Part shown: positions 21,446 to 22,518 of the stretch, piece by piece
Layout of the letters: each line of letters begins with the position of its first letter
Position numbering within the stretch: position 1 is the first letter of the stretch
IMG/VR virus record: IMGVR_UViG_3300042013_000065
DNA: 64,000 nucleotides
Source: a virus
Reading direction: 5' to 3' (one strand)
The notes under the pieces: generated by a model
Databases searched by the model: none
Seen by the model: the letters and a program-made list of their open reading frames with translations, nothing else
What the model was told of the DNA's origin: nothing
Translations under genes and position numbers: made by a program

Positions 21446-21874
21446 TCACGCACCGAACGGCTCCAAATGTTTATGCAGGCAAGTGATACAACGGCGTCCG
21501 TTATCGTATTCGAATTCCGAATCTGTACGCTCCAAATCCGCCCACACAGCGCCGTCTTCAACGTTGAGTTTTACCACCAGCCAAACGTGGCCTTCAAACA
21601 TTACCGGAATGTTGATTGCGTACGGAACGCGTGGGCCTTGTGCAACCACGATTGCGCCGCCCGGTTCATCCGACAGCAACGCTTCCAACAAACCGAAGTT
21701 TTCCGCCTCTTCCAACTTCAGGCACGCTTCGATATAGGTCAGCAAATGACTGTTCATGCTGCGGTGGTTTACACGCGCAAAAGCTTCAATCTTTTCACGC
21801 CAGCCGTCCGGCAAACGAACAACGAATTTGTCGGCGGTGCGGCTGTTGTACAAGGCTTGTTTAACTGGTTTCAT
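21446..21874 (-). CDS. amrZ: AmrZ (AlgZ)-like Arc/RHH transcriptional regulator
   Basis: MKPVKQALYNSRTADKFVVRLPDGWREKIEAFARVNHRSMNS closely matches the Pseudomonas AmrZ N-terminus (MRPLKQA..SSRTADKFVVRLP.GMRE.IAEVAR.HHRSMNSE). Confidence 0.88.
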   Translation of the reverse strand: MKPVKQALYNSRTADKFVVRLPDGWREKIEAFARVNHRSMNSHLLTYIEACLKLEEAENFGLLEALLSDEPGGAIVVAQGPRVPYAINIPVMFEGHVWLVVKLNVEDGAVWADLERTDSEFEYDNGRRCITCLHKHLEPFGA

Positions 21875-22518
21875 TTCTTTGTCCGTTTGGCGAGTTTTGG
21901 AACGGCCTGCATTGCGTTGGTAACGAGTTCGACTTCTGCATCACTCAGCAATTGGTGCATGGTGGCCGGTGTGCCGCGCTTGAACATGAACTTGATGATT
22001 TCAGCAGCACGAACAGACAAACGTTCCGCAAGAATCGCCACGGTAATATCTGACCTTTCTTCCGGTCGCTCTTCTGTCGCTGCACCTACAACGTGATTTG
22101 CAGCAGCGTCGATTGCAGCCAGTTGGCGCAACAGCATGTCTTTTTCCCAATTGTCGCCGAAAAAGAATTTGTTCAAACCTTTGATGTCGTGGCCGTCCAG
22201 ACTGAATTCACCGTTCACACGATCAACGCTATCGAGCGAGATATGTTCCATTGCGTGGTAAGCGGCTGCAACTTCCATCACGTCGATGCCGTAATACTTT
22301 GCCCAATTGTTGATCGTGACATCACTGAATGGGAAATACCCGTTGCCGGGAACTTTACGTTCTTTGCCAGCCTGCACAGCGCGATCTTTTTCAATGCCTT
22401 CGCGAATGTAGCGCAGCGTCAGTTCATGCAAACCTTTGAATGTGCCGTCGCTGAATTTTTTCAGCTCTTCAAACAGGTCATCCGGCACACGTGGGCGGTA
22501 AGGAGTTGGACGATTCAT
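21871..22518 (-). CDS. RHH domain fused to translation initiation factor IF2 N-terminal (IF2_N) domain
   Basis: N-terminal [15 protein letters not shown]...[13 protein letters not shown] (RHH); C-terminal [34 protein letters not shown] (IF2_N). Confidence 0.75.
   Translation of the reverse strand: [215 protein letters not shown]

What the first reader, a model, noticed from the sequence alone, without database searches (positions are those of the whole stretch)
21871..22518. RHH DNA-binding domain fused to the IF2 N-terminal domain
Seen: the C-terminal [34 protein letters not shown] closely matches the second IF2_N repeat of gammaproteobacterial IF2 as I recall it (ITVAELA..MSVKAAEVIKFMFKMG.P.TINQVL); the N-terminus is Arc-like. 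It is coupled to the AmrZ homologue and preceded by the mini-kinase. Known: the IF2 N-domain contacts the ribosome. Inference: a DNA-ribosome tether or IF2 competitor. I know of no described protein with this architecture.
Basis: partly seen in the sequence, partly recalled or inferred. Interest (0 to 1): 0.72.

Follow-up and report, generated by a model that had tools for sequence, protein, structure and literature searches.

The report
Phage regulator carrying captured IF2 piece
A jumbo phage of soil Pseudomonas encodes a small, probably dimeric, DNA-binding-type protein whose tail end is a copy of the piece of the host's initiation factor IF2 that docks on the small ribosomal subunit. No search here found this combination outside this small phage gene family, and it is a testable candidate for a phage factor that touches host ribosomes.

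Summary
The ORF at 21871-22518 (minus strand, 215 aa) has a C-terminal domain (residues 156-207) that passes Pfam IF2_N (36.2 bits, cut-off 25.3). It is of the N2 sub-domain type. The N2 sub-domain anchors IF2 on helix h16 of the 30S shoulder.

The domain is closest to IF2 of fluorescens-group Pseudomonas: 62-64% identity over 42 residues, against 50% or less in 249 other sampled gammaproteobacteria. A 56-nt patch is 87-92% identical to Pseudomonas infB DNA. The three loop residues named among the h16 contacts (Ser-Val-Lys) read Ser-Val-Arg here.

The N-terminus gets no Pfam hit. It is nonetheless predicted to form a ribbon-helix-helix (RHH) homodimer (score 0.63, best control 0.00).

The family is tiny: 11 clusters, all from uncultured relatives of Pseudomonas phages HRDY3 and Noxifer. 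Six members carry the IF2 piece and five have lost it by clean in-frame deletions. An overlapping AmrZ-like Arc gene always follows.

Best reading (about 0.45): a host-derived 30S-docking module grafted onto a phage RHH dimer. Ribosome binding itself is untested. I rate it a new variant of a known kind, interest 0.62.

The scan had noted this same stretch once before, in an overlapping window of the same genome.

The parts
21871..22518 (-). Whole gene, 215 aa (P0001): RHH + helical middle domain + linker + IF2-N2-like domain + basic tail
22369..22518 (-). Residues 1-50: RHH-like dimerisation and nucleic-acid-binding module. It comprises an invariant [10 protein letters not shown] strand, helix 13-22 and a helix from residue 27.
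   Evidence: Invariant columns. Predicted homodimer interface at 6-13, 15-22 and 30-46. Weak fold matches to RHH antitoxins and PutA RHH, Z 3.5-4.2. dN/dS 0.03-0.13 among long forms.
22105..22356 (-). Residues 55-138: helical middle domain of no known family. Its last helix (about 124-138) joins the predicted dimer interface.
   Evidence: AF2 model, pLDDT 81. Only weak fold matches (IF2 N domain 4b3x Z 5.5, Par, RacA). hhalign to IF2 N2 is not significant. Interface residues 125-137.
22054..22104 (-). Residues 139-155: low-confidence acidic, Pro-containing linker of variable length
   Evidence: pLDDT <50 for 142-154. Length variation across the family. Net charge -2.
21898..22053 (-). Residues 156-207: IF2 N2 sub-domain copy (strand-helix-helix-strand-helix)
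   Evidence: Pfam IF2_N above cut-off. TIGR00487 positions 10-58. 7uiu/7unv rmsd about 1 A, 48% identity. Tree puts it with N2, not N1, 98/98. 62-64% identity to Pseudomonas IF2. dN/dS 0.2-0.37.
22009..22017 (-). Codons for Ser168-Val169-Arg170, aligned with Ser277-Val278-Lys279 of P. aeruginosa IF2, three of the four residues named as the main h16 interface
   Evidence: Alignment. Residue roles from PMC9192638. SVR in 4 of 6 long forms, SLH and KTS in the other two.
21953..22008 (-). 56-nt patch 87-92% identical to Pseudomonas infB DNA, including a 31-nt exact match (21978-22008)
   Evidence: blastn and exact-match scan against 80 Pseudomonas infB loci. Public-run contigs break at this shared word, and one contig's flanks translate to IF2 sequence.
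21874..21897 (-). Residues 208-215: basic tail KLAKRTKK, conserved in all long forms and kept in one short form
21446..21874 (-). Downstream overlapping gene, 142 aa: Arc-domain (AmrZ-like) RHH protein with a different C-terminal domain. It is the constant partner gene.
   Evidence: Pfam Arc E 1.8e-14. Residues 1-57 are 61% identical to a 114-aa open frame in a Pseudomonas genome. It follows the gene in every related locus.
22519..22902 (-).
   Evidence: Present in most related loci, absent in L123.

Best explanation
The gene encodes a phage protein built on a ribbon-helix-helix (RHH) dimer: residues 1-50, reinforced by a helical middle domain. Through a flexible acidic linker, each protomer carries a copy of the host IF2 N2 sub-domain followed by a short basic tail. 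The copy was captured from the infB gene of a Pseudomonas host. That origin is shown by protein and DNA similarity; the direction of transfer is inferred, because IF2 is universal in bacteria. In IF2, this sub-domain anchors the factor on helix h16 of the 30S shoulder. I infer that the phage protein uses it the same way, docking on host 30S subunits at the IF2-N2 site. As a dimer with two such modules and an RHH nucleic-acid-binding face, it could do one of two things. It could occupy the site and weaken anchoring of host IF2, which would modulate initiation. Or it could hold 30S subunits next to whatever the RHH part binds. It probably acts together with the AmrZ-like Arc protein that is translationally coupled to it. 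Shown: the architecture, the origin of the domain, purifying selection and the conserved gene pair. Predicted: dimerisation. Inferred and untested: ribosome binding, DNA binding and the effect on translation.
For: IF2_N is above Pfam's cut-off. The model superposes on the 30S-bound N2 sub-domain of P. aeruginosa IF2 at about 1 A with 48% identity. The domain groups with N2, not N1, at 98/98 support. Closest IF2s: fluorescens-group Pseudomonas at 62-64%. In an even sample of 250 gammaproteobacterial genomes, the Pseudomonas genome scores 60%, the next 50% and the rest 48% or less, always inside 800-900-aa open frames. A 56-nt patch is 87-92% identical to Pseudomonas infB, with a 31-nt exact match. 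The three loop residues of the published h16 interface (Ser277, Val278, Lys279; PMC9192638) align with Ser168, Val169 and Arg170. C-domain dN/dS is 0.2-0.37 among four long forms, so it is kept by selection. The basic tail raises the module's net charge from -1 to +4, which fits nucleic-acid contact. Homodimer prediction: score 0.63 against a best control of 0.00. That mark was reached by 20 of 30 proteins solved as pairs of one chain and 1 of 23 solved as single chains. The runs agree in at least 98% of contacts and the partner's pLDDT is at least 81. The interface is the RHH strand 6-13 and helices 15-22 and 30-46, plus helix 125-137. RHH dimers are well represented among solved structures, so this pass may partly reflect likeness. 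Precedent: jumbo Pseudomonas phage PhiKZ makes an early protein that binds host ribosomes (PMC10914614).
Against: There is no experimental or direct computational test of ribosome or RNA binding. The domain has been lost by clean in-frame deletions in at least three close lineages, so it is dispensable for the core function. Two long forms changed the contact loop (SLH, KTS), and one (P0007) has a C-domain so diverged (dN about 0.9-1.1) that Pfam no longer recognises it. The IF2 segment upstream of N2 that wraps the h16 minor groove, including Arg259, is not clearly retained. The fold is also that of MerR/RacA/Par/excisionase-type DNA-binding domains, which are common in phages. The phage's named relatives belong to the chimallivirus group. 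That group encloses its DNA away from ribosomes (abstract of PMC12908238, listed), which argues against a phage-DNA-to-ribosome tether.
Confidence: 0.45

Rival explanations
1. The captured domain has been re-used as a second nucleic-acid-binding (DNA) module. The protein is then simply a transcription regulator with RHH plus a winged-helix-like domain and a basic tail, with no link to ribosomes.
For: After IF2 itself, the fold matches are DNA-binding domains of pSK1 Par (Z 6.1), RacA, GlnR/TnrA and MerR proteins. In the viral structure library the nearest matches are phage HTH/excisionase proteins. The basic tail fits DNA binding. The middle domain also weakly resembles the same fold. The gene is paired with an Arc-type regulator.
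Against: Sequence identity to IF2 N2 is 54-64%, against 10-24% for the DNA binders. The most conserved stretch (SV[KR][10 protein letters not shown].GTPAT) includes the published rRNA-contact loop. The globular domain itself is acidic (net -1), like IF2 N2.
Confidence: 0.25
2. The domain mimics IF2 towards a protein partner rather than the ribosome. It could act as a decoy for a host factor or defence system that recognises IF2's N-region, or as a handle for NusA-type partners.
For: IF2's N1 domain is reported to contact NusA KH2/AR1 (bioRxiv 10.64898/2026.02.08.704698). Both coupled genes carry domains about 60% identical to host proteins (IF2 N2 and AmrZ), which suggests a host-mimicry cassette. 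The fast divergence and repeated loss of the domain fit a host-specific interaction.
Against: The domain is of the N2 type, not N1. No protein partner of N2 turned up in the papers read here.
Confidence: 0.12
3. The IF2 piece is a selectively near-neutral passenger, an accident of illegitimate recombination with host infB that is decaying and being lost.
For: Five of eleven family clusters lack it through clean deletions. P0007's copy is hyper-diverged. Related cultured phages lack both the gene and any IF2_N.
Against: dN/dS is 0.2-0.37 across four diverged long forms. The frame, the fold-determining residues and the tail are kept, although DNA identity to infB has mostly eroded and GC has drifted to the phage's level (51% against 63%).
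Confidence: 0.1

Closest known systems
N2 sub-domain of bacterial IF2 (P. aeruginosa residues 266-312; PDB 7UIU/7UNV; Pfam IF2_N PF04760)
   Same: Same fold (rmsd about 1 A) with 48-64% identity. It has the same Ser-Val-basic loop that contacts 16S rRNA h16, and a 56-nt patch of DNA similarity to Pseudomonas infB.
   Different: It stands at the C-terminus of a 215-aa phage protein with no G domain or C1/C2 domains (TIGR00487 20.5 bits against a cut-off of 424). It lacks the upstream h16-wrapping segment and instead has a C-terminal basic tail.
Arc/MetJ/CopG ribbon-helix-helix regulators, including phage and Pseudomonas AmrZ-type proteins
   Same: Predicted intertwined dimer with an antiparallel N-terminal strand pair and two helices. 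It is paired in an operon with a true Arc-domain protein.
   Different: It matches no Pfam RHH model. Its own family numbers only a handful of clusters. It also carries two extra domains.
PhiKZ014 and the related Churi protein, ribosome-binding proteins of nucleus-forming Pseudomonas jumbo phages (PMC10914614, PMC11849849)
   Same: A small protein of a jumbo Pseudomonas phage that may act on host ribosomes.
   Different: PhiKZ014 binds the 50S subunit at 5S rRNA and is not described as host-derived. P0001 matched no PHROG family at all, and its presumed target is 30S h16.
Translation genes carried by huge phages (initiation factors, ribosomal protein bS21; PMC7162821, PMC9723584)
   Same: Phage-borne sequence taken from the host translation apparatus.
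   Different: Those are whole factors or whole ribosomal proteins. Here a single 50-aa docking sub-domain is grafted onto an unrelated DNA-binding-type scaffold.
MerR/RacA/pSK1-Par winged-helix DNA-binding domains
   Same: Similar small strand-helix-helix-strand-helix fold (Z 4-6).
   Different: Only 10-19% identity. There is no MerR dimerisation helix or effector domain. The similarity to IF2 is far closer.

Membership tests
Pfam IF2_N (PF04760) | Score above the curated gathering threshold | tested here: met
   36.2 bits against 25.3, residues 156-203. P0002-P0005 carry the same precomputed hit. P0006 and P0007 do not.
Pfam IF2_N (PF04760) | Small strand-helix-helix-strand-helix fold superposable on solved IF2 N domains | tested here: met
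   7unv/7uiu rmsd 0.9-1.0 A over 46 residues. 4b3x Z 6.7, rmsd 2.1 A over 53 residues.
IF2 N2 sub-domain (as opposed to N1) | Groups with the repeat next to the G domain rather than with the N-terminal repeat | tested here: met
   The N1 rows split from N2 plus the phage rows with 98/98 support. The tree has only 50 columns, so finer placement is unresolved.
IF2 N2 sub-domain | Residues of the published h16 interface (Ser277, Val278, Lys279, Arg259) | tested here: inconclusive
   Ser-Val-Arg sits at the aligned positions in this copy and in three relatives. The other two read SLH and KTS. No clear Arg259 equivalent was found.
IF2 N2 sub-domain | Binds the 30S shoulder (16S rRNA h16) | not testable with these tools
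   No RNA-protein modelling or experiment was available.
Translation initiation factor IF-2 (TIGR00487 equivalog) | GTPase domain and C-terminal domains; score above 424 bits | tested here: not met
   20.5 bits, covering only model positions 10-58. The protein is 215 aa.
Ribbon-helix-helix superfamily (Arc/MetJ/CopG) | Match to a curated RHH sequence model | tested here: not met
   No Pfam, PHROG or NCBIfam RHH family for P0001. hhalign to the Arc neighbour is in register but weak (E 0.003, probability 11%).
Ribbon-helix-helix superfamily (Arc/MetJ/CopG) | Obligate dimer with paired N-terminal strands and intertwined helices | tested here: met
   Prediction only. Score 0.63, best of 3 controls 0.00. 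That mark was reached by 20 of 30 proteins solved as pairs of one chain and 1 of 23 solved as single chains. Contacts 8-8, 8-10 and 9-11, plus helices 15-22 and 30-46. The pass may reflect likeness to solved RHH dimers.
Ribbon-helix-helix superfamily (Arc/MetJ/CopG) | Fold similarity to solved RHH proteins | tested here: inconclusive
   TacA, ParD2, KacA and PutA RHH at Z 3.5-4.2 on a monomer model.
Ribbon-helix-helix superfamily (Arc/MetJ/CopG) | Sequence-specific DNA binding through the strand pair | not testable with these tools
   No operator was identified. The only nearby intergenic gap has no convincing repeats.
MerR-type winged-helix DNA-binding domain (rival for the C-domain) | Fold match plus family sequence signature | tested here: inconclusive
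   Fold matches at Z 3.4-6.1. No MerR-family Pfam hit at E<=1.
PhiKZ014-like ribosome-binding jumbo-phage proteins | Sequence relationship to that family | tested here: inconclusive
   P0001 matched no PHROG family at E<=0.01. PhiKZ014 itself was not compared directly.

The most novel reading that the evidence does not exclude
A phage has cut out only the ribosome-docking sub-domain of host IF2 and mounted two copies on a dimeric RHH scaffold. The resulting factor sits on the 30S shoulder at the IF2 anchoring site. There it either displaces host IF2's N-domain anchor to re-tune initiation in favour of phage mRNAs, or it physically couples 30S subunits to a nucleic acid or structure recognised by the RHH/AmrZ-like pair. 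This would be the first case of ribosome hijack by a captured initiation-factor fragment.
Probability: 0.35. Interest if true: 0.8.

Novelty: new variant of a known kind. Interest (0 to 1): 0.62.

Why it matters
How phages take over host translation is much less well understood than how they take over transcription. This protein offers an unusually concrete structural hypothesis. A known, structurally mapped docking module (IF2 N2 on 16S rRNA h16) has been copied from the host and grafted onto a phage regulator. Natural variants with and without the module serve as built-in controls. If the module binds 30S, it would show a new route of ribosome targeting by jumbo phages. It would also give a minimal h16-binding tag and shed light on the still poorly defined role of the IF2 N-domain. 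If it does not bind 30S, it would be a clean example of a translation-factor domain re-used for another purpose. Together with the neighbouring AmrZ-like gene, it points to a two-gene cassette assembled from fragments of host proteins.

Tried and rejected
- **Phage collections.** Megablast of 20000-25000 against INPHARED found no match. tblastn of P0001 gave one hit, phage Y6, but that 'UNVERIFIED' record simply contains a full 840-aa P. aeruginosa infB.
- **IMG/VR scans.** The family alignment found nothing. The C-domain gave one chance word match in a tail-region ORF.
- **Word-index search for longer proteins sharing the C-domain.** None reached E<=0.001 against 5.8 billion sequences, as expected for a 66-aa query.
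- **Positional equivalents in cultured relatives.** The genes upstream of the Arc gene in Noxifer (gp105) and HRDY3 are unrelated to P0001. Neither genome has an IF2_N match.
- **Exhaustive profile search with the N-domain.** It returned only 2 family clusters, 2 distant RHH relatives and 1 spurious repeat protein.
- **ESM Atlas.** No usable hit for residues 1-140. For the C-domain with IF2 families excluded, it returned only small IF2_N-only clusters at sub-threshold scores.
- **Middle domain.** No significant sequence relation to IF2 N2 (hhalign E 0.06). Fold matches are below the noise level the tool quotes.
- **Promoter and terminator consensus scans.** Nothing above shuffles.
- **Repeats in the 26150-26470 gap.** Nothing convincing.
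- **N-domain in a Pseudomonas genome.** No match with this query.
- **Sequencing runs.** No RNA holder was listed, so expression could not be examined.
- **Contig cover.** In the runs laid, no single contig spans the whole stretch. The break falls at the word shared with host infB.
- **Assembly chimera considered and rejected.** Single contigs span the fused gene in four independent relatives (L002, L120, L123, L124), and both sides of the shared word are phage-like.
- **AlaRS-like fragment at 11781-12050.** Pfam gave only E 0.032, and there was no match in the Pseudomonas genome.

Full report
**What is there.** The window is part of a jumbo-phage genome. It carries virion and baseplate genes (phrog_16122, phrog_11065, phrog_13163). 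The identical protein sits on a 312,325-bp JGI contig. A structural protein is 52% identical to Pseudomonas phage HRDY3 (313.7 kb) and 44% to Noxifer, with weaker matches to Ralstonia RP12/RP31, Psa21 and PhiPA3. A 2026 preprint lists Noxifer among chimalliviruses. The same DNA is found in rhizosphere and soil metagenomes from four studies other than the likely source sample.

The ORF at 21871-22518 (minus strand) encodes 215 aa. Its ATG abuts the stop of a 127-aa gene (phrog_4301, unknown function). Its stop overlaps the start of a 142-aa Arc-domain gene.

**The C-terminal domain is a captured IF2 N2 sub-domain.**
- Pfam IF2_N matches residues 156-203 above the curated cut-off (36.2 against 25.3 bits). 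NCBIfam's IF-2 model aligns the same residues to its positions 10-58, just before the G domain.
- Among solved structures, the best sequence match is P. aeruginosa IF2 266-314.
- The AlphaFold model (pLDDT about 85 in this part) superposes on the 'N2 sub-domain of IF2 bound to the 30S' (7UIU/7UNV) at about 1 A with 48% identity.
- A pattern scan of one genome per species returned 80 loci, 77 of them labelled Pseudomonas. All were infB genes, 62-64% identical over 42 residues.
- A less biased test used an even sample of 250 gammaproteobacterial genomes. The Pseudomonas genome scored 60%, the next best 50% and all others 48% or less. Every match lay inside an 800-900-aa open frame. Two of those genomes (G142, G040) are flagged unpublished.
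- In a small tree (50 columns), IF2 N1 repeats separate from N2 plus the phage domains with 98/98 support. The phage rows attach on the Pseudomonas side of the split from other gammaproteobacteria (97/97).
- At the DNA level, a 56-nt patch (21953-22008) is 87-92% identical to Pseudomonas infB, with a 31-nt exact match. Relatives P0004 and P0005 show 81% and 74% over 72 nt, and P0006 and P0007 show nothing.
- Public-run contigs break exactly at this shared word. The flanks of one soil contig translate to IF2 sequence (NQVLDQETA and GDLAQQMSVK).
- The rest of the domain has diverged, and its GC (51%) is the phage's (49%), not the host's (63%). The capture is therefore not recent.

**What that sub-domain does in IF2.** Basu et al. 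2022 (PMC9192638) resolved residues 266-312 of P. aeruginosa IF2 as a small globular sub-domain docked on helix h16 of the 30S shoulder. It buries about 1170 A2. Ser277, Val278, Lys279 and Arg259 form the main interface, and an adjoining tail lies in the h16 minor groove.

In the alignment, Ser-Val-Lys corresponds to Ser168-Val169-Arg170 of the phage protein. This loop is SVR in four of six long forms, and SLH and KTS in the other two. No clear Arg259 equivalent is kept. Instead, all long forms end in a basic tail (KLAKRTKK here) that shifts the module's net charge from -1 to +4.

**The N-terminal part.**
- Residues 1-50 are almost invariant in the family ([10 protein letters not shown]..., [14 protein letters not shown]) and have the lowest dN/dS, 0.03-0.13.
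- No curated RHH model hits them.
- hhalign places them in register with the neighbouring Arc protein (weak), and the monomer model weakly matches RHH antitoxins and PutA RHH (Z 3.5-4.2).
- A homodimer prediction of residues 1-138 passes. The score is 0.63 and the best of three controls is 0.00. That mark was reached by 20 of 30 proteins solved as pairs of one chain and by 1 of 23 solved as single chains. The runs agree in at least 98% of contacts and the partner's pLDDT is at least 81.
- The interface is the canonical RHH one (strand 6-13 paired antiparallel, helices 15-22 and 30-46), plus the last helix of the middle domain (125-137). RHH dimers abound among solved structures, so the pass may partly be likeness.
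- The middle domain (55-138) folds confidently (pLDDT 81) but has no clear relative. Its best fold matches are, curiously, again the IF2 N domain, Par and RacA. These lie at Z 5.5 or lower, within the tool's noise range, and the profile comparison is not significant.

**Family and context.** The word-index search found 11 clusters. An exhaustive profile search with the N-domain added only a 62-aa RHH-only protein and a 132-aa RHH-plus-middle protein. Six members (208-221 aa) carry the C-module and five (135-157 aa) do not.

DNA alignment shows clean in-frame absences of the linker plus domain. One short form (P0008) is nearly identical in DNA to a long form (P0006) up to the junction. Another (P0010) still keeps the KLAKRT tail that follows the domain in long forms. 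The simplest history is therefore one gain and several losses.

Among four long forms the C-domain has dN/dS 0.2-0.37, similar to the middle domain. In P0007 it is hyper-diverged (dN about 1) while the N-domain is not.

In every locus examined, including those of the two distant relatives, an Arc-domain gene follows immediately. The first 57 residues of that Arc protein are 61% identical to a 114-aa open frame in a Pseudomonas genome. So both coupled genes carry a domain about 60% identical to a host protein. HRDY3 and Noxifer have the Arc gene but an unrelated gene upstream of it, and no IF2_N anywhere.

**Interpretation.** These points are shown:
- a real gene under purifying selection;
- an architecture these searches found nowhere outside this family;
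- a C-terminal domain derived from a Pseudomonas-lineage infB;
- a conserved pairing with an AmrZ-like gene.

The RHH dimer is predicted, not shown. The function is inferred. The most economical guess is that a domain whose only documented job is to dock on h16, and which keeps the contact loop, still does so. The dimer would then present two 30S-docking modules on flexible linkers. The outcome could be competition with IF2's N-domain anchor, or bridging of 30S subunits to the target of the RHH part. I put this at about 0.45.

The main rival (0.25) is that the domain now serves as an extra DNA-binding winged-helix, since the fold is shared with MerR/RacA/Par/excisionase domains. Lesser rivals are mimicry of IF2 towards a protein partner (describes a NusA contact, but for N1) and neutral decay.

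The strict 'phage DNA to ribosome tether' is weakened if this phage, like its named relatives, encloses its DNA in a protein nucleus. That was not tested for this contig.

**Novelty.** Phages are known to carry whole translation factors and ribosomal proteins (PMC7162821, PMC9723584), and PhiKZ014 is a jumbo-phage ribosome binder (PMC10914614). I found no report or database protein in which a single IF2 docking sub-domain is grafted onto an RHH scaffold. I class it as a new variant of a known kind, with interest 0.62. The scan had flagged the same stretch once before, in an overlapping window of the same genome.

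Noticed in passing
window 21446-21874 (-): The coupled Arc-domain protein is AmrZ-like. Residues 1-57 are 61% identical to a 114-aa open frame in a Pseudomonas genome, but the C-terminal half is a different, conserved domain. A related phage lineage has a 70-aa insertion between the two halves (L003).
   Followed up: partly
window 21953-22008; public runs X2, X4, X5: De Bruijn contigs of public soil and rhizosphere runs break at the 30/31-nt word shared between the phage gene and co-occurring Pseudomonas infB. This is a small example of a host-phage shared word fragmenting assemblies.
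   Followed up: yes
L120 vs L121 (P0006 vs P0008 genes): The gene is mosaic. The RHH parts of these two genes are diverged (dS 1.27), but their middle domains are nearly identical (dS 0.15), which suggests recombination inside the gene.
   Followed up: partly
window 22519-22902 (-): The 127-aa upstream gene belongs to phrog_4301 (unknown function, E 5e-18). No kinase or other Pfam or NCBIfam family was hit. It is absent from one otherwise syntenic locus (L123).
   Followed up: partly
window 11781-12050 (-): An 89-aa ORF has a sub-threshold Pfam match to the class II alanyl-tRNA synthetase family (E 0.032, 13 bits, residues 3-39). With this query there was no match in a Pseudomonas genome, so the resemblance is unconfirmed.
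   Followed up: partly
OQ572408.1 (L001) 2203-4725: The INPHARED record 'Pseudomonas phage Y6' (UNVERIFIED, 42.6 kb) contains a complete 840-aa P. aeruginosa infB gene. The record probably includes host DNA.
   Followed up: partly
window 66-125 of P0001 (22144-22323): The best, though weak, fold matches of the middle domain are the same as those of the C-domain (IF2 N domain, Par, RacA). Its strand-helix-helix start ([18 protein letters not shown]) aligns in register with IF2_N. This could be an older, eroded copy of the same fold, or a coincidence.
   Followed up: partly
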